Below are positions 9,831 to 44,985 of a stretch of DNA of 64,000 nucleotides, one piece after another. Origin of the DNA: a virus (Duplodnaviria > Caudoviricetes); the IMG/VR virus record IMGVR_UViG_3300031992_000011. One strand, 5' to 3'. The notes under the pieces were generated by a model. It was not told the DNA's origin. It worked only from the letters and a program-made list of their open reading frames with translations, and searched no databases. The translations under genes were made by a program, and so were the position numbers. The first letter of the stretch is position 1. The number at the start of each line of letters is the position of its first letter.

Positions 9831-9901
9831 GCGTCCATAGCACAGAGGCAGTGCACCGGCTTCCCAAGCCGGGGACGCCAGTTCGATTCTGGTTGGACGC
9901 T
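9831..9901 (+). tRNA. tRNA-Gly(CCC)
   Basis: Cloverleaf GCGTCCA/TGGACGC, anticodon loop TTCCCAA. Confidence 0.95.
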
Positions 9902-9908
9902 CAAGTAC

Positions 9909-10119
9909 TGCGAGTATAGACCACTTAGTAGTGACCGGTGTAAGCGCTTGGGTAGCTCGAGGCAATGTCCGAGCGTGCAGTCGTGGGGCAACGTGCACCC
10001 TCAGACCGGTGAAACGTGTTGGTGCTTGTGAAGGCCCATACGAGGTGGCGCAACAGATACGGTTCCCGCGTGGGGAATATCCAAGCCCGTGACAGCCGCC
10101 GCTCGTCAATTTACTCGCA
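9909..10119 (+). ncRNA. unidentified multibranched ncRNA (~210 nt) between tRNAs
   Basis: Closing stem TGCGAGTA/TACTCGCA, GCTTGGGTA/TATCCAAGC, several internal hairpins. Confidence 0.6.
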
Positions 10120-10122
10120 TAT

Positions 10123-10197
10123 AGGGAAGTGGCTCAGTCCGGTTAGAGCGCTTGCTTTGGGAGCAAGAGGCCGCAGGTTCGAATCCTGTTTTCCCTA
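10123..10197 (+). tRNA. tRNA-Pro(TGG)
   Basis: Cloverleaf, loop TTTGGGA. Confidence 0.95.
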
Positions 10198-10211
10198 CAA
10201 AAAAAAATAAC

Positions 10212-10285
10212 ACTCCAGTGGCGCAATTGGTCAGCGTGTCTGTCTTATACACAGTAGGTTGTAGGTTCAAGTCCTACCTGGAGTA
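10212..10285 (+). tRNA. tRNA-Ile(TAT)
   Basis: Cloverleaf ACTCCAG/CTGGAGT, loop CTTATAC. Confidence 0.9.
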
Positions 10286-10309
10286 CATTTTTGAAAAACA
10301 ATCAGCATT

Positions 10310-10528
10310 ATGCCGAAACTTAATCTAAATGAAGTACTGAATGATGACGATGTCATCAAGGCGTTGAACCCTAAAGAATGGGAGTTCAGGTGTGGCAGTT
10401 GTGACAACTTCTGTGACATCTTCGGGAGATATTCCGAGTTCAAAACCATTGAAAGATGCCCGTTCGAGGGGAAGGTGACGTGGGACACTGATTGGAGAAA
10501 GATTGGCTGTAAGTGCTATTGGAACTAA
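10310..10528 (+). CDS. small Cys-rich protein within tRNA array
   Basis: CGSCDNFC...CPF...GCKC. Confidence 0.65.
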   Translation: MPKLNLNEVLNDDDVIKALNPKEWEFRCGSCDNFCDIFGRYSEFKTIERCPFEGKVTWDTDWRKIGCKCYWN

Positions 10529-10531
10529 AAT

Positions 10532-10605
10532 GGTCCTGTAACTCAGTTGGTCAGAGTGCCTGACTCATAATCAGGGAGTCGTAGGTTCAAGCCCTACCGG
10601 GACCA
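10532..10605 (+). tRNA. tRNA(CAT), probably Ile2 (lysidine type) or elongator Met
   Basis: Cloverleaf GGTCCTG/CGGGACC, loop CTCATAA. Confidence 0.9.
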
Positions 10606-10614
10606 CAATGCAAT

Positions 10615-10688
10615 TGCGGGGTGGAGCAGATGGTCAGCTCGTTTGGCTCATAACCAAAAGGTCGCAGGTCCGAGTCCTGCCCCCGCAA
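10615..10688 (+). tRNA. tRNA-Met(CAT), initiator-like body
   Basis: TGCGGGGTGGAGCAG 5' end typical of fMet; anticodon stem TTTGG/CCAAA; T-loop TCCGAGT. Confidence 0.85.
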
Positions 10689-10752
10689 CAACACAGTCTG
10701 CCGATAAGAGATGAACACCTATTTATGTCTATAGCAGATATAGCATTGAAAT

Positions 10753-11481
10753 ATGAATAGGATAAGGCAAATCATCAACGAGGCAGTCCGAGAGACCTTG
10801 TTGTTTGAAGCGATCAAGTCAAGTTGGTTGAAAAGGTTCTTCGCCGAGCATGGAGGTGTGGACAGCACTATGCACAACGACTACTTGGGCGACGCACAGG
10901 ATGAGGATATCGAGGACGTGAAGGTTTTTCCTTCAAAGAAGGAAGCGTTTGAAATGGCGTGGAAACTGAGACGTGAGCACATAACCGGTTTTCGTAAAGT
11001 ATATGTCGCCAAGGACGGCACGGCAGTTCTTGTCGTGTACAAGGATTCTGTAAAATCAAACCCGACATGGGGCGGAGAAGCGTCCGCAAAGACAGCCGAC
11101 AGGTATTGGAGAAACGGTGAAAGGTTCACTTCGTACAATCCTGAAACCGGTCAGAGAGTACCCGGATACCGTGACGACAGGGGCACCTACACATACAGTG
11201 ACGGAAAGTCAAGCGAAGGTGCCGCCAGATTCGGCATAAGGAATTCGGACGATTACCGTAGACATGTGGCGTTCGTCAGAGATCAGAGGGCGAAGGCAAA
11301 ACAGAACGGAAAAGAGGATGATTTCAACCGTTGGCGTGATGCAGAAGCCAAGAGAGTCAAAGACTACGCTGAAGAAAAGAAGAAGGAACGTGATTGGCAG
11401 AGGGAATATTTCGGGCTCAGTGACCGTGAGCGAGAACGCAGACTGTCAAGACCTGCCCCATTGGACAAGCGTTTCAAATAA
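10753..11481 (+). CDS. leader-family protein (IRQIINEAVRETLLFE)
   Basis: Leader motif; TATTTAT at 10720-10726. Confidence 0.8.
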   Translation: MNRIRQIINEAVRETLLFEAIKSSWLKRFFAEHGGVDSTMHNDYLGDAQDEDIEDVKVFPSKKEAFEMAWKLRREHITGFRKVYVAKDGTAVLVVYKDSVKSNPTWGGEASAKTADRYWRNGERFTSYNPETGQRVPGYRDDRGTYTYSDGKSSEGAARFGIRNSDDYRRHVAFVRDQRAKAKQNGKEDDFNRWRDAEAKRVKDYAEEKKKERDWQREYFGLSDRERERRLSRPAPLDKRFK

Positions 11482-11530
11482 CACGAATGCGTTAAACGGC
11501 CGCGCCGACATGTCAGTGCGGTCATTTTAT

Positions 11531-11602
11531 GCCCCCTTAGCACAGCGGTAGTGCAGTTCACTTGTAATGAACAGGTCGTTGGTTCGAATCCGACAGGGGG
11601 CT
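11531..11602 (+). tRNA. tRNA-Thr(TGT)
   Basis: Cloverleaf, loop CTTGTAA. Confidence 0.95.
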
Positions 11603-11694
11603 CAACATAGCAAGGTAACAACAAGGCGCGACTCCCCCAACCGCGCCGGTAACCCGCACGTAACAGCCGATAGGGGCGGCGACCTTGCCGATAC

Positions 11695-11766
11695 GCGGAT
11701 GTAGCACAACGGTTCGTGCACCAGCCTTCCAAGCTGGGGATGACGGTTCGATTCCGTTCATCCGCT
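11695..11766 (+). tRNA. tRNA-Gly(TCC)
   Basis: Cloverleaf, loop CTTCCAA. Confidence 0.95.
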
Positions 11767-11895
11767 CAAAAAATGGGCTGAAATTTGTGGGCATAAAGTT
11801 AAAACCTCAAGACGTTGAAAGCAGCAGTATAGGGACTGCTATTGGCGGTCAGATTAACCGTAGCCACATCTTGCAAGAGTTTCGGCCTTTAATAT

Positions 11896-11973
11896 AGCGG
11901 AGTGGAGCAGAAGCAGCTCGTCAGGTTCATACCCTGAAGGTCGTCTCAAACGGTGCAAGTCCTACCTCCGCCA
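11896..11973 (+). tRNA. atypical initiator-like tRNA-Met(CAT) with T-arm insertion
   Basis: A1:C72 mismatch, loop TTCATAC, T arm GT-CTCAAAC-GG TGCAAGT CCTAC. Confidence 0.6.
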
Positions 11974-11981
11974 CTAAAATA

Positions 11982-12105
11982 TGGGATTCTACACAGAGTA
12001 TTCTTTTAAGTAGATGCATATGCTTACTAGGATATTGGGTGGTATTAGATTTTGAAACTGCAGATAATCAAAATCTATTAGGAGGTTCGAGCCATCTGTT
12101 TCCCA
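11982..12105 (+). ncRNA. enlarged or degenerate tRNA-Gln(TTG)-like element
   Basis: TGGGA/TCCCA ends, GGTTCGAGCC T-loop, 10-bp TAGATTTTGA/TCAAAATCTA hairpin at the anticodon position. Confidence 0.45.
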
Positions 12106-12119
12106 CAAAATTCAAAAAT

Positions 12120-12193
12120 GGTGCGTTAGTTCAGTTGGTTAGAATGCCTGCCTGTCACGCAGGAGGTCACGGGTCCGAGTCCCGTACGCACCG
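12120..12193 (+). tRNA. tRNA-Asp(GTC)
   Basis: Cloverleaf, loop CTGTCAC. Confidence 0.95.
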
Positions 12194-12247
12194 CTTCTTG
12201 ATTGTTTGAATGAGTGGTTTGGGTCGTGTGAGCGCCCAGACCTTTTT

Positions 12248-12321
12248 GCTCCCTTAGCTCAGTTGGATAGAGCGTGAGGTTCCTAACCCCAAGGTCATGT
12301 GTTCGAGCCACATAGGGAGTA
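12248..12321 (+). tRNA. tRNA-Arg(CCT)
   Basis: Cloverleaf, loop TTCCTAA. Confidence 0.9.
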
Positions 12322-12325
12322 CTAT

Positions 12326-12411
12326 GGATGGGTGGCAGAGTTGGTCGATTGCACCGGTCTTGAAAACCGGCGGCCCGCAAGGGTCCGGGGGTTCGAATCC
12401 CTCCTCATCCG
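12326..12411 (+). tRNA. tRNA-Ser(TGA)
   Basis: Long variable arm, loop CTTGAAA. Confidence 0.95.
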
Positions 12412-12418
12412 CATAACA

Positions 12419-12502
12419 GCGACAGTGGCGGAACTGGTAGACGCGCCACCTTGAGGGGGTGGTGGGCACACGCCCGTGAAGGTTCGAGTCCTTTCTGTCG
12501 CA
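12419..12502 (+). tRNA. tRNA-Leu(GAG)
   Basis: Long variable arm, loop TTGAGGG. Confidence 0.95.
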
Positions 12503-12546
12503 CAGGCCGGCCGCGAGACGCGCAACGGTCCGTGGCATGGGCATTT

Positions 12547-12620
12547 GCTGCCATCGTCTAATTGGTTAGGACGTCGCCCTTTCACGGCGGAGATTACGGG
12601 TTCGAGTCCCGTTGGCAGTA
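12547..12620 (+). tRNA. tRNA-Glu(TTC)
   Basis: Cloverleaf, loop CTTTCAC. Confidence 0.95.
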
Positions 12621-12624
12621 CAAC

Positions 12625-12696
12625 GACTCCGTAACTCAGTGGTAGAGTATCGCACTTTTAATGCGAGAGTCGTGGGTTCAAGTCCCACCGGGGTCA
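12625..12696 (+). tRNA. tRNA-Lys(TTT)
   Basis: Cloverleaf, loop CTTTTAA. Confidence 0.95.
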
Positions 12697-12710
12697 CGAA
12701 CGCGACAAGA

Positions 12711-12783
12711 GGGCCGCTAGCTCAGATGGTAGAGCGCTACATTCGCATTGTAGAGGTCACCGGTTCGAATCCGGTGCGGTCCA
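12711..12783 (+). tRNA. tRNA-Ala(CGC)
   Basis: Cloverleaf with G3:U70, loop TTCGCAT. Confidence 0.95.
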
Positions 12784-12930
12784 CAGACAGAGCGTGTCGC
12801 GAACACGCACGCCATCGCACGAGAGGATTGGGGATGGTAACCCCGGATTGTGGAGGTCGTCTAACCAACGATAGAAGTGGCCGTCCGGTACATAATCAAC
12901 GGACAAACATCGTGACGCTTGGCATGTCAT

Positions 12931-13002
12931 GGGGTGATAGCTCAACGGTAGAGCAATTGGCTGTTAACCAATAGGCTGCAGGTTCGAATCCTGCTCACCC
13001 CG
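12931..13002 (+). tRNA. tRNA-Asn(GTT)
   Basis: Cloverleaf, loop CTGTTAA. Confidence 0.95.
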
Positions 13003-13076
13003 CAACTCAGAAGAACGGGCGAATCGCCCTGACAATGGGGATTGAACGGCACCGCCAAAAGTGGTGCCTTTTGCCG

Positions 13077-13160
13077 GGGAGCGTAACCGGTAATTGGTAG
13101 CCGCACGGACTGTAAATCCGTTCCTTAATTGGACTGGTCGTTCGAGTCGACCCGCTCCCA
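13077..13160 (+). tRNA. tRNA-Tyr(GTA)
   Basis: Variable arm, loop CTGTAAA. Confidence 0.9.
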
Positions 13161-13171
13161 CAATGACTGTT

Positions 13172-13245
13172 CTTCCTGTAGCTCAACTGAATAGAGCAAT
13201 GCACTTCTAATGCATAGGTTCTGGGTTTGAGTCCCAGCGGGAAGA
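13172..13245 (+). tRNA. tRNA-Arg(TCT)
   Basis: Cloverleaf, loop CTTCTAA. Confidence 0.9.
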
Positions 13246-13254
13246 CTAATAACA

Positions 13255-13327
13255 AGGCGGTTAGCTCAGTTGGTAGAGTGGCGGTCTCCAAAACCGCAGG
13301 TCGCACGTTCGAGCCGTGCACCGCCTG
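13255..13327 (+). tRNA. tRNA-Trp(CCA)
   Basis: Cloverleaf, loop CTCCAAA. Confidence 0.95.
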
Positions 13328-13335
13328 CAAAAAAA

Positions 13336-13425
13336 GGAAGCATACCCAAGTTGGTGAAGGGGGCGGCTTGCTAAGCCGCTAGGCCTCGGCGACGGGGCGC
13401 GGAGGTTCGAGTCCTCCTGCTTCCG
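13336..13425 (+). tRNA. tRNA-Ser(GCT)
   Basis: Long variable arm, loop TTGCTAA. Confidence 0.95.
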
Positions 13426-13432
13426 CACAAAC

Positions 13433-13505
13433 AGGGTAGTAGCGCAGTTGGTAGCGCGCTACGTTCGGGACGTAGAGGTCGCAGGTTCGAATCCTGTCTA
13501 CCCTA
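13433..13505 (+). tRNA. tRNA-Pro(CGG)
   Basis: Cloverleaf, loop TTCGGGA. Confidence 0.95.
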
Positions 13506-13513
13506 CTTGAATG

Positions 13514-13568
13514 TTAACAATTATTAACATGAAAAATTTGCAAGGTATATTTTTTTGTCGTACCTTTG
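13514..13568 (+). promoter_or_regulatory. Bacteroidota-type promoter for scaffold-RNA array
   Basis: TTAA 13514/13524, TTTG 13537, TACCTTTG 13561-13568. Confidence 0.8.
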
Positions 13569-13574
13569 CACTTG

Positions 13575-13662
13575 AAAACAATGGTGAGTGACAGGGTTAC
13601 TTCGCATACAAACTGTTACAAGATTAAAAAGCAACGAACCCTTCGCATATCTTCCTTGTTTT
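13575..13662 (+). ncRNA. scaffold RNA 1 (GGUUACUUCG family, minimal cargo)
   Basis: Closing stem AAAACAA.GG/CCTTGTTTT, AGGGTT/AACCCT, motif at 13595-13604. Confidence 0.65.
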
Positions 13663-13682
13663 TGTTCTTTGACATTCTTAAA

Positions 13683-13817
13683 ATGTGTGCAGTGACTGTG
13701 GCGGTTACTTCGTTGATTAGCTCATTTGGTAGAGCATAAGTTTATGGTACTTAGGGTAGATGGTTCGATTCCATCATCACAAAAGATTGTTTGCCGCCGC
13801 AAAATTTTCTCACACAT
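13683..13817 (+). ncRNA. scaffold RNA 2 with embedded tRNA-like body (anticodon ATG)
   Basis: ATGTGTG/CACACAT, TGTGGCGGT/GCCGCCGCA; D, anticodon and T arms at 13714-13779. Confidence 0.75.
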
Positions 13818-13825
13818 AACTCATA

Positions 13826-13958
13826 TTCCGCATAGTGACGGGCGGTGTTACTTCGAATTATTTAGCGCAGTGGTTAGCGCATCACACTTTTAATGCGAGA
13901 GTCGCCGGTTCGATTCCGGCAATGATTCTTTAAAAGCACCCCCATTTTTCTTGCGGAA
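13826..13958 (+). ncRNA. scaffold RNA 3 with embedded tRNA-Lys(TTT)-like body
   Basis: TTCCGCA/TGCGGAA closing stem; cloverleaf at 13856-13928. Confidence 0.75.
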
Positions 13959-13965
13959 AAGCACA

Positions 13966-14090
13966 ACCGGTTGTGACGTATCTCGGTTACTTCGATACGT
14001 TGGTTCGAGTCCAACTTTGTCCGCCATACAATTGGACGAATAGTCAAGTGGTTAAGACAGAATTCTTTACCGAGGCGAGTTTCCACCGGT
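13966..14090 (+). ncRNA. scaffold RNA 4, circularly permuted tRNA mimic (YrlA/Y-RNA-like architecture)
   Basis: ACCGGT/ACCGGT, CTCGGT/ACCGAG; order is T arm, closed acceptor stem, D arm. Confidence 0.75.
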
Positions 14091-14141
14091 ACAAAAAACG
14101 GTCTGCTTCAATGTAGATGGATTTTGTAGATGGTTTAACGT

Positions 14142-14174
14142 GCGGTGCGCTGTATATCAGTGTGCCGCTTTTTT
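14142..14174 (+). terminator. intrinsic terminator ending the scaffold-RNA transcript
   Basis: GCGGTGCGCTG/CAGTGTGCCGC + T6. Confidence 0.8.
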
Positions 14175-24516: not shown

Positions 24517-24693
24517 ATGGCAAACGACACGAAGAAGCTCGAGCAAGAAATATCGACACTTTCCAAGGAAGTAGGAAAGATGTCCGACACAATGAAGGAA
24601 AGCAACCGGGTGCTGCAGCAATTGGTGAGGCAGATGGAAAAAATCACCGAGCGCATGACGCAGCAGAACGAACTGTTACGCAACGGAAAATGA
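24517..24693 (+). CDS. small coiled-coil protein (58 aa, not on ORF track)
   Basis: MANDTKKLEQEISTLSKEV...; follows TACCTTTG at 24483; ATGA-coupled to the next gene. Confidence 0.7.
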   Translation: MANDTKKLEQEISTLSKEVGKMSDTMKESNRVLQQLVRQMEKITERMTQQNELLRNGK

Positions 24694-26042
24694 TCGGATT
24701 TGACGACATAAGGAAAGAAGGACTTCTGCTCTATGAGTATGTAAGAGGCAGTCACGCATACGGACTTCAGAAACCGGACGGAAGCAGCGACATTGACACC
24801 GGCGGTGTATTCATTGAACCATACGAGTGGATAGCCGGTCTCGGGCATGACGCAGTCGAACAGGTGGCGGATGCACGCGGTGACACTGTGTGGTATGCAC
24901 TCAAGAAATACCTCAGGCTCCTCATTGTCGCAAATCCGACTATGTTGGAGAGTCTGTTCGTGCCGGAACGTTGTGTCCTGTATGAACATCCTTTGTTCGG
25001 GACAATCAAGGCGAACCGAGACATCTTCGTCACCAAAGAATGTTTCAAGTCATTCCTTGGATATGCGGTGAATCAGATAAAGAAGTGCCGCGGACTGCAC
25101 AAAATGATAGTACAAGAGGATTTCGAGCGGAAACAGCCGCTTGATTTCTGCTATACGTTCTATGGGCAAGGAAGCAGCAAGATAACCAACTGGCTTGAGT
25201 ACAGAGGTCTCAAGCAGGAGTATTGCGGACTGGTGAATATTCCGAATATGCGAGACATCTACGGATGCTACTATGACTGGCACAGACATTTTACCGAGTG
25301 CGGAATCACATATGAAGAATTAATTGAGACATTTCTCAATGGCCGTCCGGACACAAATCTGTCTGTCGTCATTGACCGGATCAAGACATGCTCCGACAAT
25401 GCCGAGAAAGAACACCTTGAACGGATGCGTGAACTCGCGGTGAAATGGAACATGGTAGATTTCATAACGAGGGAAGTCCTCGGTATGAATGAGATTTATG
25501 ACGAACACGCCGCCTGCGCTGTGATAGCAGAATGGATGAACAGACTTCAAGACAATCACTACAGTGGAATTGTCGGTCCTGACGGTCAGTCAAACGAAAT
25601 TCGACTCTCGTCCATACCAAAAGGTGAGATGCCGATATGCAACATATCGTACAACAAGGACGGATACACCAAGCACTGCGTCGAATACAAGAACCTTCAG
25701 AGATGGAAAAGGGAGAGAAACCCCGAACGCTACAAAGAAAATGTCGGCAAGAACTTTGACCGAAAGAATGTCGCCCACGCCGTGCGATTGATGCACATGG
25801 GGATAGAGATCGCCAGAACCGGAAAGGTCAATGTAGACAGGACTGACATCGACCGCGACTTTATAATGGGGATACGAATGGGTGACACGTCATATGACGA
25901 GATAATGTCATATCTTGAGTCAAAAAAGTCCGAGCTTGAAGACGCCATGATGACGTCGACGATACCGGATAGCGTTGACATGGACAAAGTAAGTGAATTG
26001 CTTGTGGCAATGAGAGAACAATTCAATAATGTCAAAAACTGA
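24690..26042 (+). CDS. Pol-beta superfamily nucleotidyltransferase (RlaP/YcgL-like)
   Basis: GSHAYGL...SDIDTGGVF, ANPTMLESLF, KNVAHAVRL. Confidence 0.85.
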   Translation: MIGFDDIRKEGLLLYEYVRGSHAYGLQKPDGSSDIDTGGVFIEPYEWIAGLGHDAVEQVADARGDTVWYALKKYLRLLIVANPTMLESLFVPERCVLYEHPLFGTIKANRDIFVTKECFKSFLGYAVNQIKKCRGLHKMIVQEDFERKQPLDFCYTFYGQGSSKITNWLEYRGLKQEYCGLVNIPNMRDIYGCYYDWHRHFTECGITYEELIETFLNGRPDTNLSVVIDRIKTCSDNAEKEHLERMRELAVKWNMVDFITREVLGMNEIYDEHAACAVIAEWMNRLQDNHYSGIVGPDGQSNEIRLSSIPKGEMPICNISYNKDGYTKHCVEYKNLQRWKRERNPERYKENVGKNFDRKNVAHAVRLMHMGIEIARTGKVNVDRTDIDRDFIMGIRMGDTSYDEIMSYLESKKSELEDAMMTSTIPDSVDMDKVSELLVAMREQFNNVKN

Positions 26043-26053
26043 ACGAAAGTAAT

Positions 26054-26251
26054 ATGCAATATCCGTATCTTGGAAGGAAATACTTGGACGGCAAACCGTT
26101 TGTCGTCATGTTCTTTGAGGAAGAAAGGGGCATCGTTGTCATGAACGAAACCGGACACGATGAACTCAACATTGGGCAAGTGAAGGATTTTGACGAGGAT
26201 TCTTTTGAATACCTCCCGAATGACGTTGATGTGAGACTTAACAATGATTGA
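26054..26251 (+). CDS. hypothetical protein
   Basis: Coupled ORF. Confidence 0.7.
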   Translation: MQYPYLGRKYLDGKPFVVMFFEEERGIVVMNETGHDELNIGQVKDFDEDSFEYLPNDVDVRLNND

Positions 26252-27269
26252 TATGTTTTTTATAGGCAAAAATAAATTACCGGACAATTTCTACGGCTTT
26301 GGTGAACTGGCAAAGACGTTCATAAAAGACAACAACCTCAACTTCACATATGTGAATCCGAAGCAGTTCATGTACAGTCTCAAGATGAGGGACAGTGACG
26401 AATATATGGTTGAGAAATGGGAGTCCACACTCAGGCTTATTCTCGACACATTCAACGGGAATGTGTGGAAGTACTATGCATACAGGGAACATGTCATGAG
26501 GGATGCCATTCAGCAAATCACTTCTACGGATGCATACCAACAGTTTATCAACGGAGACATGTCCAAATATCAAACTGTGGATGCGGAAAAAGCGAGATAC
26601 AAGACCCATTACAACGAGGAATGTCTGAAAAAAGTCAAATATTTTTTCTCTGTTGACATGAATAACGCGAACTTTCAATCTATGAGTCATGTCGACAGTG
26701 CGATGTTTATGGGTGACATGACTTATTCGGCGTTCATCAGCCGATTCACCACAGTGCCAGACATTGTAATGAGCAAGCATTTCCGCAGTGTGCTTTTCGG
26801 CAAACTTTGTCCAAAACGCACGGTTCAAGTGACGAGACATTTAATGAGTGGTGTCGAGGACACTGTCAGAAGGGCGCTCAAGGCGAAATACAAACATTTC
26901 GTGCTGGTGTGCAGGAACACGGACGAGGTGATATATGAGACCGACCGGATGGTTTCTCCGTATGACGCGATGTACATCCGCATGATGGTTGGACAAGACA
27001 ACAAAATCAGCGTGAAGACACGATGCTTCACCATGGACGGGTACAAACTCATGTGTGACAAAAACATACCGGTCGACACGTTCTACATGTCGCATGACAT
27101 CGTGACCGGACATGACAAGACACATTCAATGAATGCGAGATATGCGAACATATGCCATAAACTGCTCGAAGGGAAAAAGGTCAGAAGAATGGATCGTCTG
27201 ACCTGTATAGAAAATGTCGAGATGGAGATGAAGGGAAATTTTAAAATTGAAAAAATCAAGAAGGGATGA
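26244..27269 (+). CDS. hypothetical protein with polymerase-palm-like acidic motifs
   Basis: FSVDMNNANFQS and NTDEVIY. Confidence 0.6.
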   Translation: MIDMFFIGKNKLPDNFYGFGELAKTFIKDNNLNFTYVNPKQFMYSLKMRDSDEYMVEKWESTLRLILDTFNGNVWKYYAYREHVMRDAIQQITSTDAYQQFINGDMSKYQTVDAEKARYKTHYNEECLKKVKYFFSVDMNNANFQSMSHVDSAMFMGDMTYSAFISRFTTVPDIVMSKHFRSVLFGKLCPKRTVQVTRHLMSGVEDTVRRALKAKYKHFVLVCRNTDEVIYETDRMVSPYDAMYIRMMVGQDNKISVKTRCFTMDGYKLMCDKNIPVDTFYMSHDIVTGHDKTHSMNARYANICHKLLEGKKVRRMDRLTCIENVEMEMKGNFKIEKIKKG

Positions 27270-27652
27270 AAAGTTTATTTGTAAAAATTTTCGTGACGTC
27301 AGTTATAGCGCTAACCAGCATATTCGCTTTCCCGTCGCATGTGGTGAGGGCGACAAAGTACTACGCAGGACACAATTGCGGTTTCGTCACCGCTGACGGA
27401 AGCCGAATAAATGTGGGCAAGGTTCACAATGGGCAGCACAGATGGGTTGCGTTGAGTCATGACATGTTCAGAAAAGGATATCGGCTCGGTGACAAAATAA
27501 TGGTCACGTCGTCGAACAGCCGGCTGAATGGAGTTTGGGTCGTGAAGGATAAAATGGGACCGAGGAAGCGGAACTCCATTGACTTCCTTATGACTCGCGG
27601 AAACAGCAAATGGTTCACGTCACCGTGCAAGGTGACAATAAGGAAGGTGTGA
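27266..27652 (+). CDS. 3D-domain (double-psi barrel) cell-wall enzyme-like protein
   Basis: Signal peptide, TADGS, WVALSHD, VKDKM, IDFL. Confidence 0.8.
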   Translation: MKSLFVKIFVTSVIALTSIFAFPSHVVRATKYYAGHNCGFVTADGSRINVGKVHNGQHRWVALSHDMFRKGYRLGDKIMVTSSNSRLNGVWVVKDKMGPRKRNSIDFLMTRGNSKWFTSPCKVTIRKV

Positions 27653-27653
27653 T

Positions 27654-27902
27654 ATGTTGAGCGGAAACAAGGAACACGACCGGTTGAGGCAGGAATATAA
27701 CCGCCGCATCATCAGAATGATTTCCGACAAGGTTGAAAATCATCCATACCTCAGGTTTGGACAGATACTTGTGAGTTGTGGCGTGATAGAAGACGGTAAG
27801 GACCCGTTCTATGACGAGCCTTGGGAAATTTATTATCGCATGAAAAGATATGCTTCAAAAGAAGAAACCGAATATGGAAACCAACAGGATAACAATAAGT
27901 GA
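27654..27902 (+). CDS. hypothetical protein
   Basis: HPYLRFGQIL...DPFYDE. Confidence 0.7.
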   Translation: MLSGNKEHDRLRQEYNRRIIRMISDKVENHPYLRFGQILVSCGVIEDGKDPFYDEPWEIYYRMKRYASKEETEYGNQQDNNK

Positions 27903-28626
27903 GGCCAGTCCTGTCGACAAACTCAATGGAAAGGTCGTGGACAAGATGATCATCACAAAGCCTTGCGACACATGCGGGAGTATGATGGTGATGACATTCA
28001 TGGACGGAACTTATTTTGCCATAACAGTCAACATGGATTCACTGAGCGGGAACTGTGAGTTTAAGAACATGCAACTTATGTCGCCGGTAGCGTATCTCAA
28101 GGGAAAAATCATATTCGACGGAGAATCTGTCCATGTTGACGACAGTGTCAGAAAAATGCAAGAGGTTGGTGTCATAGGTCTCACGGATGAACATGTACAG
28201 AACGAGACCGAGCGTGTTGTGGTTGACGCAGAGATGAAACTGATGGAGGAATACAATTCCTTCAGGTACAAATACGCGAACGGATATCGCGGGGCAACGC
28301 CTGTGGTGAAACTGTGGCAGATGTCAAAAGACGGCAGAATCCCCAAAGACGTGATAGAACGCGTCAAGGGTGTGATGTCAAAAACAGAGCAGAGATATTG
28401 GGATGTTTTTGAAGGCGCATATGGCAATCTGATAATTCAACTTAAAAGCATGCGAACACTTCTGCTCGTCATCGTATCCGAAAACTCCGTGTCATACATC
28501 CTCGATAAAGGGGATGACGCCCAACGGAGGACATACAAGGGGAAGTTCAACGGACGGGACGAGGATTCATTGTCGATTCTGTTAAACAATCTAAAAGATT
28601 CACAGTTCCCGATGTGGTTTGGCTGA
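27874..28626 (+). CDS. hypothetical protein
   Basis: ORF 27850..28626. Confidence 0.7.
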   Translation: METNRITISEASPVDKLNGKVVDKMIITKPCDTCGSMMVMTFMDGTYFAITVNMDSLSGNCEFKNMQLMSPVAYLKGKIIFDGESVHVDDSVRKMQEVGVIGLTDEHVQNETERVVVDAEMKLMEEYNSFRYKYANGYRGATPVVKLWQMSKDGRIPKDVIERVKGVMSKTEQRYWDVFEGAYGNLIIQLKSMRTLLLVIVSENSVSYILDKGDDAQRRTYKGKFNGRDEDSLSILLNNLKDSQFPMWFG

Positions 28627-28665
28627 AAATTATTAACTTTGCGGTACAAAAAATAGAAACACAAT

Positions 28666-29451
28666 ATGCCATCTTTCAATGAGACAATAAAAAGTGTGTC
28701 ATACAGTCAGCATGAGATATTGTACAACATCATGCAGATGCACAACGAAGGAAAACCATTCGACTGTGACATGACCTATTCAAAGGGAGCGTTCTACGGT
28801 GATTTCACCATACAGCGCGACAACGGGGAAAAGTTCAGTTTCTCCGTGCCAAGACCGGAGCACACGTTCGACGTCGCGCCTCAGGACGACCTCACCGTGA
28901 AGATAGACCCTCTCGGTCCGCTTCCGCTGAACGACGCTTCAATAGACTCGATAGTCTGCGACTTACCGTTCGTCATATCGTGCGGACCTTCGATGGACGG
29001 ACCTGACTACGACGAGGACGGAAAACGGGTGAAGAACAACATCATATCACGAAGGTTCGCATCGTACTATCCTGTTGCGCAACTGACCGAGTCATATTAC
29101 CATTGGATGGAGGAGATGCATCGTGTGCTAAGGCCGGACGGCATCGCCATCGTGAAGTGCCAGAAGACGATAACGGGCAGCAAGGCGCTGAACACGCCGG
29201 AGTTCGTGTGGATGGCCGCAGAGAGTCTCGGAATGGACATGATGGACTCGTTCATGCTCGTGGCGAAGGCAAGACTCATATCAGGAAAGGTCAAACAGCA
29301 GCAGCACAGCAGAAGATTCGAGAGTGAATTCCTCGTGATACGGAACAACATGAAGAAAAAAATCAAGTACCTTGACTTCTGCAGCGAGGAAACAGCAAGG
29401 AAGATAGTGGACGGACTGTTCATCAACAACATCGCCAAACGGCGGAAATAA
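28666..29451 (+). CDS. DNA amino-methyltransferase-like protein
   Basis: DMTYSKGAFY, IVCDLPF (DPPY variant), RVLRPDG; TAACTTTG at 28634. Confidence 0.75.
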   Translation: MPSFNETIKSVSYSQHEILYNIMQMHNEGKPFDCDMTYSKGAFYGDFTIQRDNGEKFSFSVPRPEHTFDVAPQDDLTVKIDPLGPLPLNDASIDSIVCDLPFVISCGPSMDGPDYDEDGKRVKNNIISRRFASYYPVAQLTESYYHWMEEMHRVLRPDGIAIVKCQKTITGSKALNTPEFVWMAAESLGMDMMDSFMLVAKARLISGKVKQQQHSRRFESEFLVIRNNMKKKIKYLDFCSEETARKIVDGLFINNIAKRRK

Positions 29452-29471
29452 TACGGAAAATATGCAAACGA

Positions 29472-30254
29472 TTGTCACACCACATCATTCAGTTCAACCG
29501 GGAATCTTGCATACAGGCAAGATCCATATTAGGGAAGGACAAAACCGCAAGTGTAACATGGCGGTTCAATTTTGCGCCCAGCAACCGAATCGGAAACTGC
29601 ACGAACCTTTACCGAAAGATCAGGCCAAAGAATGTCGAGGAGTTTTTTGACAAGTACGTCGGGTTCGCGGAGGAGCACCTGTCACTGCCGATAAGGGACA
29701 GAGGTTTAACCGAGCACGAAATACTTCAGGTTGCGCGTGACTACAAGATGATGAGCGAGAACGGCACTGACAAGAACATCGAAGTGTCGACGTATCTGTA
29801 CGACGCATTGTGCCACATCATAGTGGAAACATGGGACGGACAGAGAAACGAGCGCGAATTCGCTGATTTTTTACGGTCGCTCGGATATCGTTGTGAGAAC
29901 TTCGACGGAAGCATAGACGCAAAATACGGTCTCGACATCAAGGTCACGCGGGCAGACGGGAGAGTTTCCGCCATCCAAATAAAGCCTGTCTCGTTTTTCC
30001 TGTCAAACCGTCCCGATGTGCAGATGGACCGCATCAACCTCTGCAAAAAGTATGAGGACGCGCTCGAACAACTTGGGGTCAAAACATATTACGCAATATA
30101 CAGGACCGACAAGGAAAGCGGAGACACCCTATGGTCAAAGAACGGGCAAGGGTTCAGATATCGCATCAATGAACTGTTCTCATATCAGAAGGGGGATATC
30201 GAAGGAACTTTCGCAAGAATGCCCCACACATACAATTTCCAACCGTTGCCATAA
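29472..30254 (+). CDS. PD-(D/E)XK restriction endonuclease-like protein (MjaI-like)
   Basis: ETWDG..E..DAKYGLD..AIQIKP.SF; adjacent to MTase. Confidence 0.6.
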   Translation: MSHHIIQFNRESCIQARSILGKDKTASVTWRFNFAPSNRIGNCTNLYRKIRPKNVEEFFDKYVGFAEEHLSLPIRDRGLTEHEILQVARDYKMMSENGTDKNIEVSTYLYDALCHIIVETWDGQRNEREFADFLRSLGYRCENFDGSIDAKYGLDIKVTRADGRVSAIQIKPVSFFLSNRPDVQMDRINLCKKYEDALEQLGVKTYYAIYRTDKESGDTLWSKNGQGFRYRINELFSYQKGDIEGTFARMPHTYNFQPLP

Positions 30255-30292
30255 TGACGGACAAAGATGGATAAATGACATGGTTTCTATTG

Positions 30293-30347
30293 TTAACATT
30301 TATTAACAAAAAAGATTTTGTCATTCCATTTTTTTTACATACCTTTC
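30293..30347 (+). promoter_or_regulatory. promoter with TTAA-N6-TTAA box
   Basis: TTAA 30293/30303, TTTG 30317, TACCTTTC 30340. Confidence 0.7.
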
Positions 30348-30416
30348 GGTTGTTCCGTTTGAATGAGGCGGAACAATATACAAAGTACAACCATTTTATA
30401 AAACATTAAAGTTAAC

Positions 30417-30638
30417 ATGAAAATTTCAATCAGCAAGACGAAAGCTACTATCATCGAGAAAATCAACGAGAAAATGCAAAACGACCCGGACTTCATGAAG
30501 ACGTTCGTGCAGAACACAGATACTGTACCCGCAGAAGGCACTGATGCGTACAACTTTGTGACAGACCTCTTCGGAGAGTGGACGCTTGCCGGCATGGTGC
30601 AGATCCGTTCATGCATCGCAGGGTTGCTTTGCCGCTAA
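30417..30638 (+). CDS. hypothetical protein
   Basis: ORF after promoter. Confidence 0.7.
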   Translation: MKISISKTKATIIEKINEKMQNDPDFMKTFVQNTDTVPAEGTDAYNFVTDLFGEWTLAGMVQIRSCIAGLLCR

Positions 30639-30658
30639 TCCAAAATAACACAACGGTC

Positions 30659-31363
30659 ATGAAAACAATGAAATTAAGTATTGAGCGCCTAATGGTCGGG
30701 GACTATGTCTACTACGACGGCAATGTATTCATCGAGGACGAATACGAACCTGCTGTCGAGTTGGAAATCGTTAAGATTCTCAATGGGGACGACATAGACC
30801 TTGCCTACGAGGAATGTTTCTATGGCATTCCGTTGTCTGATGATTCGTTGACCCGATTTGGGTTCAAAAAAGCGACCGAGAAATGTGAAGACCCGTTCAA
30901 CGAAGGAACCGAGTTGACGATGCACGTTGCCGAGTTCAAGGAACAATTGTCAGGTGACGGTGTTGCCACGAACCGAGTTGTTGTCTACCCTGGCGGGTCT
31001 GTCAGCATTGATTCGGCAACGTGCCACATTACGGTACACTGTGAGTACATCCACGAGATTCAGCACGCCATGCGGGTGGCCGGAATGAAGAAGGATTTGG
31101 TATTGACAGAAGACAAACCATTGGCAATGACAGAAGACGAACCGGCGAATCAGTGGCACGACAACGAAAAAGAGGACATTTGGGACTCGTTCGATGACTG
31201 GGAATTTCACCATTTCATCTGTATGATGAAGGACGGCAATGTTGTCACATTTAGAGGCATTTGTGACGAGACTGCGGACGGTGAAATACACAAGCACATA
31301 GACTGCACGGACGCTGACTATAACACGGACGACATCCGTTGTTGGGTTGAAACGCCACGATAG
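30659..31363 (+). CDS. hypothetical phage protein
   Basis: LMVGDYV...IPLSDDSL.RFGF...HEIQH. Confidence 0.7.
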   Translation: MKTMKLSIERLMVGDYVYYDGNVFIEDEYEPAVELEIVKILNGDDIDLAYEECFYGIPLSDDSLTRFGFKKATEKCEDPFNEGTELTMHVAEFKEQLSGDGVATNRVVVYPGGSVSIDSATCHITVHCEYIHEIQHAMRVAGMKKDLVLTEDKPLAMTEDEPANQWHDNEKEDIWDSFDDWEFHHFICMMKDGNVVTFRGICDETADGEIHKHIDCTDADYNTDDIRCWVETPR

Positions 31364-31391
31364 ACCTGTTAACTACTCACGAATGAAAAAT

Positions 31392-31841
31392 ATGATTGAC
31401 ACAAGAGAACTACGAGAGAAGATAAAGGAAAACGCCATCCGTTTGAACGACATGGGGCGTGAAGTCGAAACCAAAAAGAGGGAAATCAATCATCAGGCAC
31501 TGGAACTCATTTCAAAACTGAAAGAAATCCCCAATTGGGAGGAGTTGGTGCGTGAGACATCTAGATGGGTGTTACAGGTCCCTGGTTTCACTAAAAGATG
31601 CTATGCTGACTGCGACACGTTGGATAATACAATAAGCATGTATTACACCACGCATGACGTTTTTGACATCGAACTTTTACTTTTTGAGATACCTCTCGAT
31701 GTCGAACTCGACGAGCTCGTCAAGGACGCAGTCAGAAAAAGCGATGAGTTGAAGAAGATACAGGAAAAGAAAAAGATGGAGAAAGAACTAGCTGAACTCA
31801 AAAGACTGCAGGAGAAATACAAAGACTACGAAAAGCAATAA
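31392..31841 (+). CDS. hypothetical protein
   Basis: ORF; start uncertain. Confidence 0.65.
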   Translation: MIDTRELREKIKENAIRLNDMGREVETKKREINHQALELISKLKEIPNWEELVRETSRWVLQVPGFTKRCYADCDTLDNTISMYYTTHDVFDIELLLFEIPLDVELDELVKDAVRKSDELKKIQEKKKMEKELAELKRLQEKYKDYEKQ

Positions 31842-31847
31842 AACAAT

Positions 31848-32066
31848 ATGGAAAGTCAGGAGGCGAAACTGTATAGCGGGAAGAGACTGGTACATCAGTT
31901 GTACCTGCTTGGGTGTAACGACGACATTGACGAAATAACAATCGGAAAAGACGGCAATATGGTTGTTTCGACAATAGAGACGGTTCAGAAGGGCGAAGGA
32001 GACCATGTCGAATTCGTATCCGAGGAGAGAGAATATACAGGTATCACAAGAATCAGTTTCAAATAA
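31848..32066 (+). CDS. hypothetical protein
   Basis: Operon ORF. Confidence 0.65.
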   Translation: MESQEAKLYSGKRLVHQLYLLGCNDDIDEITIGKDGNMVVSTIETVQKGEGDHVEFVSEEREYTGITRISFK

Positions 32067-32070
32067 AGTC

Positions 32071-32319
32071 ATGGATAAGGAAAAACTAGAAAGACTGTTG
32101 AATGTCGCCATCAAGGTACTGCTTGGAGACGAGCATGAGGAGAACGGAACGTATTCCCTTTATTTCGACAGGGAGCTGTACATTGACACCAACGGTGACA
32201 AAAGAAAGATTGCAGAATTGTTCAACGAAGGAAAACTTGACATTGTTGAGATGCCAGAATACCCATATGACAACCACTGCGGTCTAAAGTTAAAGTACAA
32301 GGACGAGAAGGAGGACTGA
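32071..32319 (+). CDS. hypothetical protein
   Basis: Operon ORF. Confidence 0.65.
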   Translation: MDKEKLERLLNVAIKVLLGDEHEENGTYSLYFDRELYIDTNGDKRKIAELFNEGKLDIVEMPEYPYDNHCGLKLKYKDEKED

Positions 32320-32321
32320 CC

Positions 32322-32738
32322 ATGGACGATAACTTCAATTCTATTGATTATGCTGACCTTTATGACGTAAAACCTGGCGAGAAAGATTTCGGCGGCGCAA
32401 TTGAAAGGGCAATTGAAGAAGGACCGAAACATGTCGGCGAAGACTTCCTCGACGCAAACGCCGAAATGCGTGAAATGAGAAGGGAGGAAGTCATAAACAG
32501 TCTGCAATACAACGCGGCAAAGGAAGCGCTGCGTAGAAACGCAAACTCTGCCGATGATTTCGAGGATGGCGCAGAATACGGATACCAGTTTGCAATTGAC
32601 AAGGTATGCAGATGGCTTGAGACGAACTGGGAAGATTTGGGTTACGCCTGGTTAAGAGGATACTCTGGCAAGGACGTTGCCGACTTTTTAAAAGAAGAAA
32701 TTGAGAATGGAGAAACGGGACAAGGAAATACTGATTAG
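32322..32738 (+). CDS. hypothetical protein
   Basis: Operon ORF. Confidence 0.7.
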   Translation: MDDNFNSIDYADLYDVKPGEKDFGGAIERAIEEGPKHVGEDFLDANAEMREMRREEVINSLQYNAAKEALRRNANSADDFEDGAEYGYQFAIDKVCRWLETNWEDLGYAWLRGYSGKDVADFLKEEIENGETGQGNTD

Positions 32739-33102
32739 GTTCATGTGCGAATGTCAGCCATACGGAATGAAGTGTGACGTACACGGACGCGTGCGTGAAC
32801 TAAGATATGTCGACACCAAGAAAGGAACGGCTTGCTTCGAGTCTGAACTTGGAAACGGCTATGTTCCACAGGAGTATCCGATTGAGGAGGCAAAACCATA
32901 TGTAAGGCCATTAAAAAACCTTACAGAGGAGGAGTTTTCCGAAATCAAACCGACGCTGCTTTCGACCCCATCAAACATTGAGGAGTCACTCGCCATAATA
33001 GACAAGTGGGGCTTTTTCGTGAGAAGAAAACATATTGACTATTTGGGACTGCTCGAAAATGGGCTAGGCGTCTCAACAGAAACGTTTAACCCGTACGAAT
33101 AA
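32707..33102 (+). CDS. hypothetical phage protein
   Basis: KPYVRPL...HIDYLGL. Confidence 0.7.
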   Translation: MEKRDKEILIRFMCECQPYGMKCDVHGRVRELRYVDTKKGTACFESELGNGYVPQEYPIEEAKPYVRPLKNLTEEEFSEIKPTLLSTPSNIEESLAIIDKWGFFVRRKHIDYLGLLENGLGVSTETFNPYE

Positions 33103-33115
33103 AAACTATAAAGAT

Positions 33116-33472
33116 ATGGAAACATTCAATGTATTGTTATGGGACTTCAACAGAGATGAGCTTGAGTACTATGATGTGCTCCCTTATCTCAGGGACAGGT
33201 ATGATGAGAGAAAGAAACGTTCCAAAAAGGTTGGAAAGGACAAGGAAGTCTCAAAGTTTTGGAAGGTCCCGGAGACGCTTGACGAGTTCAAGGAGTTCAT
33301 CAAGGAAGAGTCCATGCACCAGTTCTGGGCGAGATGCGAATACGAGATGATTTGCCACGGATGGCCGGTGAGGAAGAACGACCATAAACTTGACGTCCAT
33401 GAGCAGATAATGATGAACCTCGACGTAATCGCGAGGATTATGCACGATGAATTGGGCAAGAAGGCTAAGTGA
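33116..33472 (+). CDS. hypothetical phage protein
   Basis: FWARCEYE...KLDVHEQI. Confidence 0.75.
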   Translation: METFNVLLWDFNRDELEYYDVLPYLRDRYDERKKRSKKVGKDKEVSKFWKVPETLDEFKEFIKEESMHQFWARCEYEMICHGWPVRKNDHKLDVHEQIMMNLDVIARIMHDELGKKAK

Positions 33473-33522
33473 CCGCCCCAACGGATTCATTCGTTGGTTT
33501 TCCCGCAGGCATGTTATGACAC

Positions 33523-33560
33523 AAATCCTCCGAAAGGTGAAAAACCTGCCGGAGGATTTT
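33523..33560 (+). terminator. intrinsic terminator
   Basis: AAATCCTCCG/CGGAGGATTT. Confidence 0.65.
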
Positions 33561-33634
33561 CATGTTTAGTTTCTGTAAGTATATTAATTCGTGTGAACAA
33601 CAGTCATATGCTTCTCTAAAAAGTTCCGTCAATT

Positions 33635-33689
33635 TTAACAATTTTTTTGAAAAAACTTTTGCGTATGAGAAATATTTTCACTACCTTTG
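33635..33689 (+). promoter_or_regulatory. Bacteroidota-type promoter
   Basis: TTAA 33635, TTTG 33658, TACCTTTG 33682. Confidence 0.75.
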
Positions 33690-33717
33690 CCACATAAAGA
33701 AAAAAAAATAGTGAAAT

Positions 33718-34245
33718 ATGTCAAAAACAGTGAAGATGAAACAGATTGATGAGATGCAAATTTATGTCGTCAAGTCTGTCACCGGGCAATATGAAGACAA
33801 GACGTTTCACGTCGAGCGTGCATTCACGACTGTCGAGTCGGCGAAGGCATATGCGAGGGCGATGAACAGTGACCTCAAAAAATACGAGGACGCCTATTCT
33901 CTATGTGATGATTACGAGAAGAAGCGTGACGGTGTATACCGAGAATACCTGAGAAGCGTCGACGCAGGACTTCTTGATAGATGTGAGCGACTGTTCGGTG
34001 GCGAAGAACCGACAGATGGAATTCTCACCGACGAACAGGAAGCGGATATCAACCGCTATGAAGAAATGTTCGCCGTTCTCATGAGAAACTGCGAATCAGA
34101 TGAATTCACCAAAGCGGCCGTGTCTTATGGTCTTAGTGACGCGGAGATTGAAGAATTGCGCAACGCAGTGACATACGAGGAGAAATCGTATGAGATTCCT
34201 TATTATTATGTGCAGCACGAACCTGTGACGCTTAAACTGTTCTGA
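33718..34245 (+). CDS. hypothetical protein
   Basis: ORF. Confidence 0.7.
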   Translation: MSKTVKMKQIDEMQIYVVKSVTGQYEDKTFHVERAFTTVESAKAYARAMNSDLKKYEDAYSLCDDYEKKRDGVYREYLRSVDAGLLDRCERLFGGEEPTDGILTDEQEADINRYEEMFAVLMRNCESDEFTKAAVSYGLSDAEIEELRNAVTYEEKSYEIPYYYVQHEPVTLKLF

Positions 34246-34247
34246 GT

Positions 34248-36971: not shown

Positions 36972-36972
36972 C

Positions 36973-37122
36973 ATGACACTGGACAAAGCCGTTGATATTA
37001 TTTACTACCCGTCTGACTTGTTTGGGAACAAACCGTCAGAAGACGACGTCAAGAAGGCACGTTCTGTCATCGACGAATATCTTAAGAAAAAACGGGAAAA
37101 GAAAAAAGTTAAGAAAAATTAA
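36973..37122 (+). CDS. small hypothetical protein
   Basis: MTLDKAVDIIYYP... Confidence 0.5.
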   Translation: MTLDKAVDIIYYPSDLFGNKPSEDDVKKARSVIDEYLKKKREKKKVKKN

Positions 37123-37186
37123 CAATTATTGTGTTGTATATCGTGGTATGAGACACTCATTTTAAAGGTATAAAGCATACCATACG

Positions 37187-38226: not shown

Positions 38227-38245
38227 AACTTCAAATTGAAACGCG

Positions 38246-40994: not shown

Positions 40995-41000
40995 GTGAAC

Positions 41001-41027
41001 AATCCGGCGGAAACGCCGGATTTTTTT
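41001..41027 (+). terminator. intrinsic terminator
   Basis: AATCCGGCG GAAA CGCCGGATT + T tail. Confidence 0.85.
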
Positions 41028-44952: not shown

Positions 44953-44985
44953 TGATAATGTAGAACAATTTAATAAACAAGAAAG

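What the first reader, a model, noticed from the sequence alone, without database searches (positions are those of the whole stretch)
13514..14174. Dedicated operon of four scaffold RNAs with a shared GUGA...GUUACUUCG frame and interchangeable tRNA-derived cargo
Seen: its own promoter (13561) and terminator (14142) bracket four units. Each has a closing stem, GTGA, an inner stem, the invariant GTTACTTCG (13596, 13704, 13847, 13986), a cargo, and a pyrimidine-rich 3' internal loop. The stem sequences differ between units yet stay paired, which is internal covariation. Cargos: minimal, a His-like tRNA body, a Lys(UUU) tRNA body, and a permuted T-acceptor-D module. Known: bacterial/phage YrlA Y RNAs join a Ro60-binding stem to a tRNA-like module. 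Inference: a protein-bound RNA platform displaying tRNA mimics, for example as decoys for anticodon nucleases or as tethers for repair/decay enzymes. Normal-order tRNA bodies inside such a scaffold are not something I recognise. No Ro60/TROVE gene is in this window.
Basis: partly seen in the sequence, partly recalled or inferred. Interest (0 to 1): 0.92.

Follow-up and report, generated by a model that had tools for sequence, protein, structure and literature searches.

The report
Phage Y RNAs displaying tRNA mimics
A 330-kb rumen phage carries four small RNA genes in a row that share one handle for the RNA-binding ring protein Ro60 but display different tRNA look-alikes; they are a divergent, uncatalogued branch of the known bacterial Y RNAs and may bait or redirect host enzymes that attack tRNA.

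Summary
Observation confirmed. Four units share GTGAC…GTTACTTCG (4 matches, 0 by chance). Each 5' half pairs only with its own 3' half, and homologues covary strongly. They are Y RNAs of the YrlA/YrlB class with a variant handle (UAGYRA, not GNCGAAG). Unit 4 aligns over the whole Rfam YrlA model but scores 18 bits (cut-off 69). In 150 Bacteroidota genomes the frame lies beside the Ro60/TROVE gene in 8 of 10 TROVE genomes and in 0 of 140 others, often before RtcB. The window has no TROVE gene, but a 545-aa TROVE protein is recorded on a 330,287-bp contig, the same length as the contig carrying the window's proteins. Unit 3 is a tRNA-Lys(UUU) body with no G-C pair in its acceptor stem; Lys(UUU) cargo recurs in related and crAss-like gut phages. 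Unit 2 is not His-like: a sister strain has a Gln(UUG)-type loop. Most likely a Ro60-clamped platform that displays tRNA mimics against host tRNA-targeting enzymes; binding and function are untested. This is a new variant of a known kind, and the scan met the same frame earlier in crAss-like phages.

The parts
13537..13568 (+). Bacteroidota sigma-A type promoter (-33 TTTG, -7 TACCTTTG); predicted start about 13573-13575
   Evidence: same motif heads the tRNA operon at 9772; the homologous unit in L269 starts a few bases after the same motif
13573..13664 (+). Unit 1: minimal Y RNA (YrlB-like hairpin); frame conserved, cargo loop variable between strains
   Evidence: cargo 13605-13635 carries many substitutions and insertions in sister strains while the frame is nearly unchanged; model R1 31.9 bits
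13664..13674 (+). GTTCTTTGACA, a boxA-like spacer motif (inferred antitermination/stable-RNA element)
   Evidence: only two plus-strand matches in the window: here and 9802, just before the first tRNA; the boxA identity is from memory
13683..13817 (+). Unit 2: Y frame carrying a normal-order D-anticodon-T body (13713-13779) with a 4-bp acceptor and a Gln(UUG)-derived loop; not chargeable as folded
   Evidence: Rfam tRNA 44.9 bits over model 4-67
13826..13958 (+). Unit 3: Y frame carrying a whole tRNA-Lys(UUU) body (13856-13928): 7-bp acceptor without any G-C pair, C73, no CCA, A29-C41 mismatch
   Evidence: anticodon arm plus variable loop match the phage's own tRNA-Lys (12625) at 22 of 23 bases
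13966..14090 (+). Unit 4: YrlA-type permuted mimic: T arm 13999-14015, closed 7-bp acceptor-like stem 14016-14040 (loop begins GCCA), D arm 14043-14058
   Evidence: aligns to Rfam YrlA positions 1-114, 18 bits; two double changes that keep pairing in sister strains: 14018/14038 and 14020/14036
14142..14174 (+). Intrinsic terminator (11-bp stem, U tract)
9831..13506 (+). Ordinary tRNA cluster directly upstream (context; probable donor of the Lys cargo)
24690..47094 (+). RNA heal-and-seal genes in the same window: RlaP nucleotidyltransferase (24690), HD-kinase (35580), RNA ligase (38246), phosphoesterases (37417, 39646, 46447), Thg1 (43954); context, link to the array inferred

Best explanation
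The four units are Y RNA genes of a divergent YrlA/YrlB subfamily typical of Bacteroidota and their phages. They are transcribed as one stable-RNA operon and cut into four RNAs of about 90-135 nt (inferred). Each folds into a long stem whose base (outer helix, UAGYRA/UUUUCU internal loop, inner helix, invariant UACUUCG) is bound by the phage's own Ro60/TROVE ring, encoded far away in the genome (binding inferred from linkage). The far end of the stem displays a swappable cargo. Shown: structure, covariation, homology to YrlA, linkage to TROVE, non-standard acceptor stems. Inferred mechanism, my most likely (about 45% given the identity): Ro60 stabilises the RNAs so that the tRNA elbow and anticodon arm, above all Lys(UUU) and Gln(UUG), act as non-translating baits or competitive inhibitors for host tRNA-cutting or tRNA-modifying defence enzymes. 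They would work alongside the phage's spare tRNAs and RNA repair enzymes. Unit 4 and unit 1 play the classical YrlA tether and YrlB gate roles.
For: Unit-specific pairing (own halves 48/107 pair at a fixed register, swapped halves 4.2%). 25 of 28 predicted pairs show double changes in 17 permuted units. Arrays sit directly next to TROVE genes in phages and MAGs. Sample of 150 Bacteroidota genomes, training genome left out: full-length hits of 47 bits or more in 8 of 10 TROVE genomes, all within about 2 kb of the gene, and in 0 of 140 without TROVE (Fisher p about 1e-11); RtcB follows in at least 3. Homologues score 28-47 bits on Rfam YrlA; YUAY is a known YrlA feature. TROVE P0182 (545 aa, DHSGS MIDAS motif, homologous to phage Ro60 PDB 9kop at E 2e-14) has longest contig 330,287, like the window's proteins; a 99%-identical copy and the array occur in one other sample, SRR27755828. 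Syntenic jumbo phages keep TROVE a few kb before the tRNA cluster and carry the same frames. The Lys loop CUUUUAA is kept on five different anticodon stems in two architectures. U3's acceptor has 0 G-C pairs against 3-6 in the 20 ordinary tRNAs. tRNA-Lys(UUU) is the target of PrrC and AriB (PMC12409363); competitive inhibition of an anticodon nuclease by YrlA was proposed in PMC7790460; a Ro60-like protein counters the Ppl defence in phage Bas63 (PMC11482910).
Against: The defining GNCGAA motif is absent (0 of 48 units), and no binding was tested. Array and TROVE gene are unlinked in this phage (no unit within 6 kb of the sister strain's gene). Anticodon loops in non-gut phages are diverse, which fits an elbow-based role as well as an anticodon bait. 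Lys recurrence is partly shared ancestry: three of the four groups are related jumbo phages, and about 65 crAss-like copies are one lineage. RNA evidence is weak: contigs only.
Confidence: 0.62

Rival explanations
1. Same Ro60-Y RNA particle, but the cargo is a tether. The tRNA-like end recruits host PNPase or the phage's ligase, kinase and nucleotidyltransferase to Ro60 for decay or repair of damaged RNA, and the anticodon identity is incidental.
For: Deinococcus and Salmonella Y RNAs tether Rsr to PNPase (PMC4201824); Thermus phage Ro60-Yrl binds and dampens host PNPase (PMC12135203); bacterial loci read TROVE, Y RNAs, RtcB; the repair toolkit is in this window; loops vary widely outside gut phages.
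Against: It does not explain why gut phages keep an intact Lys(UUU) arm on different stems and in both normal and permuted order.
Confidence: 0.25
2. The frame is a protected precursor. RNase P and 3' trimming release a working tRNA-Lys from unit 3 (and a two-piece GCCA-ended RNA from unit 4) as nuclease-resistant spare tRNAs.
For: U3 has a full cloverleaf with a 7-bp acceptor; U4 has a 7-bp stem followed by GCCA, like the RNase P-cleaved M. smegmatis YrlA; the A29-C41 change lies at the AriB cut site 40/41 (PMC12409363).
Against: U3's acceptor has no G-C pair and ends in C73; homologous Lys units have degenerate acceptors; the phage already has a normal tRNA-Lys(UUU) at 12625 that also has C41; GCCA is not conserved among permuted homologues.
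Confidence: 0.07
3. The array is a decaying relic, left behind when the TROVE gene moved away, with cargos picked up by recombination with neighbouring tRNA genes.
For: TROVE is unlinked here but linked in relatives; U3's arm is nearly identical to the phage's own tRNA-Lys.
Against: Promoter, terminator and all four frames are intact; strain differences in the stems keep pairing, including two compensatory pairs; the TROVE gene is whole.
Confidence: 0.04

Closest known systems
YrlA Y RNA (Rfam RF02553; Chen et al. 2014 PMC4201824; structure Wang et al. bioRxiv 10.1101/312249)
   Same: 5'-3' long stem, conserved YUAY, permuted T-acceptor-D module (unit 4), linkage to Ro60/TROVE and RtcB, several Y RNAs from one precursor, presence in phages.
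   Different: The 5' motif is UAGYRA rather than GNCGAAN0-1G; YUAY is extended to GUUACUUCG; unit 4 scores 18 bits against a cut-off of 69; units 2 and 3 carry normal-order bodies with an anticodon loop, which YrlA lacks; the array is far from the Ro60 gene in this phage.
YrlB of Salmonella and M. smegmatis; Yrn2 of Deinococcus
   Same: Minimal long-hairpin Y RNA beside a tRNA-mimic Y RNA (unit 1).
   Different: No direct sequence comparison was possible; different 5' motif.
Deinococcus radiodurans Yrn1
   Same: tRNA-like domain in normal D-anticodon-T order on a Ro60-binding stem (PMC4201824).
   Different: Yrn1 has a metazoan-type bulged helix, an incomplete D arm and a 6-nt loop; here the D arm, a 7-nt anticodon loop and the T arm are complete.
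Thermus phage phiLo Ro60 with Yrl1/Yrl2 (PMC12135203; PDB 9kop, 9l5y)
   Same: Phage-encoded Ro60 homologous to P0182 (E 2e-14) with several phage Y-like RNAs.
   Different: Its RNAs have a CGAA motif, lie next to the gene, and no whole-tRNA cargo was described in the passages read.
DUF2828-linked 'UACAGCAA-handle' phage RNAs (earlier scan notes only, unpublished)
   Same: Arrays of one handle with swappable tRNA-mimic cargo, including Lys(UUU) mimics.
   Different: Different handle and a different Ro60-like protein family; not tested here.

Membership tests
Bacterial Y RNA (class) | Long stem formed by the 5' and 3' ends with a large internal loop, 80-220 nt | tested here: met
Bacterial Y RNA (class) | Genomic association with a Ro60/TROVE gene | tested here: met
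   Family level: 8/10 against 0/140 genomes. This phage: TROVE present but unlinked; same-contig placement rests on the equal contig length and a scan note.
Bacterial Y RNA (class) | Physical binding to Ro60 | not testable with these tools
   needs EMSA or immunoprecipitation
Bacterial Y RNA (class) | Expressed as discrete small RNAs | tested here: inconclusive
   metatranscriptome run X16 has identical contigs over 13549-13992 and 13963-14094, but contigs show no ends and may include DNA
YrlA (RF02553) | Score at or above the gathering threshold (69 bits) | tested here: not met
   unit 4: 18 bits, E 0.13; homologues 28-47 bits
YrlA (RF02553) | 5' motif GNCGAAN0-1G | tested here: not met
   0 of 48 units; consensus UAGYRA at the equivalent place
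YrlA (RF02553) | Conserved YUAY before the tRNA-like module | tested here: met
   UUAC within GUUACUUCG aligns to the model's CUAc
YrlA (RF02553) | Permuted T arm, closed acceptor-like stem, D arm; no anticodon loop | tested here: met
   unit 4 only; units 1-3 have other cargos
Functional tRNA gene (unit 3) | Cloverleaf with a chargeable acceptor stem and discriminator | tested here: inconclusive
   cloverleaf met; acceptor has 0 G-C pairs, C73 and an A29-C41 mismatch, and is enclosed in the frame; homologues have broken acceptors
tRNA-His mimic (unit 2) | GUG anticodon or conserved His-type loop | tested here: not met
   AUG in the window, UUG in the sister strain; UUUUGGU is the tRNA-Gln loop of related phages

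The most novel reading that the evidence does not exclude
Gut Bacteroidales phages use Ro60-clamped Y RNAs as a programmable RNA anti-defence platform. Whole, non-chargeable tRNA bodies, repeatedly Lys(UUU), are recombined into one handle to soak up tRNA-targeting immune nucleases. This would give Ro60/Y RNA particles a defined function in phage-host conflict and make some annotated phage tRNA genes decoys.
Probability: 0.3. Interest if true: 0.82.

Novelty: new variant of a known kind. Interest (0 to 1): 0.52.

Why it matters
What the tRNA-like domain of bacterial Y RNAs is for has been open since 2014. A family in which one handle carries minimal, permuted and whole-tRNA cargos, with real anticodon loops, makes that directly testable by swapping cargo. 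The subfamily is below Rfam's threshold, and its members are mis-annotated as tRNA genes (tRNA-Tyr and tRNA-Lys in OR575929, tRNA-Gln in MT774387, and tRNA-Lys at 13855 here), which affects counts of phage tRNAs. It also supplies the partner RNAs for the Bacteroidota clade of Ro60 proteins.

Tried and rejected
Rfam at the gathering threshold and at E<=10 over 13500-14820 gave only tRNA hits, so ribozyme, tmRNA and riboswitch families were not supported. blastn against INPHARED found only T4-type tRNA matches. No own genome was held, and the JGI/ENA/Logan records could not be searched by handle. P0182 itself had no contig on record, so its neighbourhood was read from a 99%-identical copy. The exact unit-3 pattern found nothing in JGI metagenomes. 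No relatives of two window proteins were found in IMG/VR. Most hits of the 14-base pattern were chance matches in coding DNA. Fragments G003 and G004 carry frames but no TROVE; at 11-19% complete they are uninformative. Partial R1 hits (model 32-114) and L306 are tandem tRNA genes. The 45810 look-alike is a terminator and the one at 63852 lies in coding sequence. The 29-41 mismatch occurs in only 2 of 5 framed Lys stems, so I do not treat it as a conserved feature. RNA run X12 has no contig over the array, which proves nothing. Two key reviews (PMC10870794, PMC6542706) and the 2014 supplement were not available, so prior description of this subfamily cannot be excluded. Y RNAs were reported in B. 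thetaiotaomicron Ro60 particles (review PMC11277228) but could not be compared.

Full report
Observation. The window belongs to a phage of about 330 kb (longest contig of its proteins 330,287) found in sheep and cattle gut samples, with Bacteroidota-type promoters. After a cluster of 20 tRNA genes come a promoter (TACCTTTG at 13561, TTTG at 13537), four units and an 11-bp terminator at 14142. The pattern GTGAC-N-GTTACTTCG occurs four times against none in shuffles. The units span 13573-13664, 13683-13817, 13826-13958 and 13966-14090. Each has an outer helix, a 5' motif facing a pyrimidine loop, an inner helix, UACUUCG and a cargo. Each 5' half pairs with its own 3' end at -18 to -24 kcal/mol and with the others at -5 to -14. 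Sister strains change the stems without breaking them, including two compensatory pairs in unit 4, while unit 1's cargo loop varies freely.

Cargos. Unit 1 is minimal. Unit 4 is a T arm, a closed 7-bp acceptor-like stem and a D arm; it aligns over all 114 positions of Rfam YrlA but scores only 18 bits. Unit 3 is a whole tRNA-Lys(UUU) body whose anticodon arm matches the phage's own tRNA-Lys at 22 of 23 bases. Its acceptor has no G-C pair (3-6 in the other 20 tRNAs), its discriminator is C, and it has an A29-C41 mismatch. Unit 2 is a D-anticodon-T body with a 4-bp acceptor.

What it belongs to. A motif scan of IMG/VR led to arrays of the same frame directly upstream of TROVE (Ro60) genes. TROVE loci from phages and MAGs nearly all carry such units. 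A second scan found a framed Lys(UUU) body about 196 bases before TROVE in about 65 crAss-like gut phage contigs, one lineage. Across homologues the consensus is UAGYRA ... GUUACUUCG ... UUUUCU; own halves pair at a fixed register in 48 of 107 anchored cases against 4.2% of swapped halves. In 17 permuted units, 25 of 28 predicted pairs show double changes. A model built from them (R1) finds all four window units at full length. In an even sample of 150 Bacteroidota genomes, with the training genome left out, full-length hits of 47 bits or more occur in 8 of 10 TROVE-encoding genomes, always beside the gene, and in none of 140 others; RtcB follows in at least three. Homologous permuted units score 28-47 bits on Rfam YrlA, below the cut-off of 69. 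So the frame is homologous to YrlA but fails two of its defining tests: the score and the GNCGAAN0-1G motif (PMC4201824). It works like a Y RNA and belongs to the class, but it is not a member of RF02553 as curated.

The partner protein. The window has no TROVE gene. A note of this scan reported one 117 kb before the window (e1-5674829). I tested this by another route. A homologue search returned P0182, 545 aa, whose longest contig is 330,287 bp from the same three sources as the window's proteins. It hits Pfam TROVE, carries a DHSGS MIDAS motif and is homologous to the solved Thermus phage Ro60. A 99%-identical copy lies among methyltransferases in sample SRR27755828, which also holds a near-identical array, and has no unit within 6 kb. 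Syntenic jumbo phages (30-54% identical orthologues of the window's first genes) keep TROVE a few kb before the tRNA cluster and have frames, including Lys(UUU) cargo in normal order (L266) and in permuted order with an anticodon arm (L267).

How it most likely works. Shown: fold, covariation, homology, linkage, odd acceptors. Inferred: the operon is transcribed as stable RNA (it shares a promoter type and a GTTCYTTGACA motif with the tRNA operon), is cut at the short spacers, and each RNA is clamped at its base by Ro60. An RNA library holds identical contigs over the array, but contigs cannot show ends or exclude DNA. I put about 0.87 on the Ro60-bound Y RNA identity. For the cargo I favour bait. 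The Lys loop CUUUUAA sits on five different stems in gut phages, tRNA-Lys(UUU) is the target of PrrC and AriB (PMC12409363), competitive inhibition of an anticodon nuclease by YrlA has been proposed (PMC7790460), a Ro60-like protein counters a defence system in Bas63 (PMC11482910), and the window encodes an RNA repair kit. The main rival is a tether to PNPase or repair enzymes, as shown for Deinococcus and for phage phiLo; loops in non-gut phages are diverse, which fits it. Release of a working tRNA and a relic state are less likely.

Novelty. Y RNAs beside phage Ro60 genes, several per locus, are known (PMC4201824, PMC12135203), and Yrn1 already has a normal-order tRNA-like domain. I found no paper on the UAGYRA handle or on complete anticodon-bearing bodies in it, but two reviews were unavailable. 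The scan described the same frame in crAss-like phages (e1-3669744, e1-3643250) and an analogous family with another handle. What this locus adds is the four cargo types under one dedicated promoter, uncoupled from the Ro60 gene. Verdict: real, a new variant of a known kind, interest 0.52.

Noticed in passing
L128:2666-2884 (OR575929) and L129:1917-1992 (MT774387): GenBank tRNA-Tyr, tRNA-Lys and tRNA-Gln annotations are framed Y RNA units with degenerate acceptors.
   Followed up: partly
L165:3992-4132, L267:12345-12487, L231, L150, L169, L209: A further cargo type: T arm, closed acceptor, D arm and then an anticodon arm (a fully permuted cloverleaf), with loops such as CUUUUAA, CUUAUAA and CUCAUAA.
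   Followed up: partly
L302 (reverse strand, about 1795-1900): A bacterial genome (G154) also carries a normal-order body in the frame, with a UGU (Thr)-type loop, so whole-tRNA cargo is not limited to phages.
   Followed up: no
window 14091-14127: Imperfect hairpin with a 12-nt direct repeat (14112, 14125) between unit 4 and the terminator; not a frame unit, unexplained.
   Followed up: no
window 9905-10110 and 12785-12930: G+C-rich, tRNA-free spacers inside the tRNA cluster that look structured; no Rfam hit at the gathering threshold.
   Followed up: no
window 11896-11973 and 11989-12106: A weak tRNA (Rfam 31.5 bits, missed by ARAGORN) with an enlarged T loop, and a following tRNA-like stretch with acceptor-like ends and a long insert.
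   Followed up: no
window 14814-21642: Host-like gene block: FtsH-like AAA/M41 protease, DnaJ, NUDIX, IF3 and a sigma-70 factor.
   Followed up: no
L273:2542-3561: The sister strain has an extra 339-aa gene between the 102-aa ORF and the FtsH-like gene, absent from the window.
   Followed up: no
window 45793-45850: The terminator hairpin there contains GTGAC...GTTACTTCC by coincidence.
   Followed up: yes
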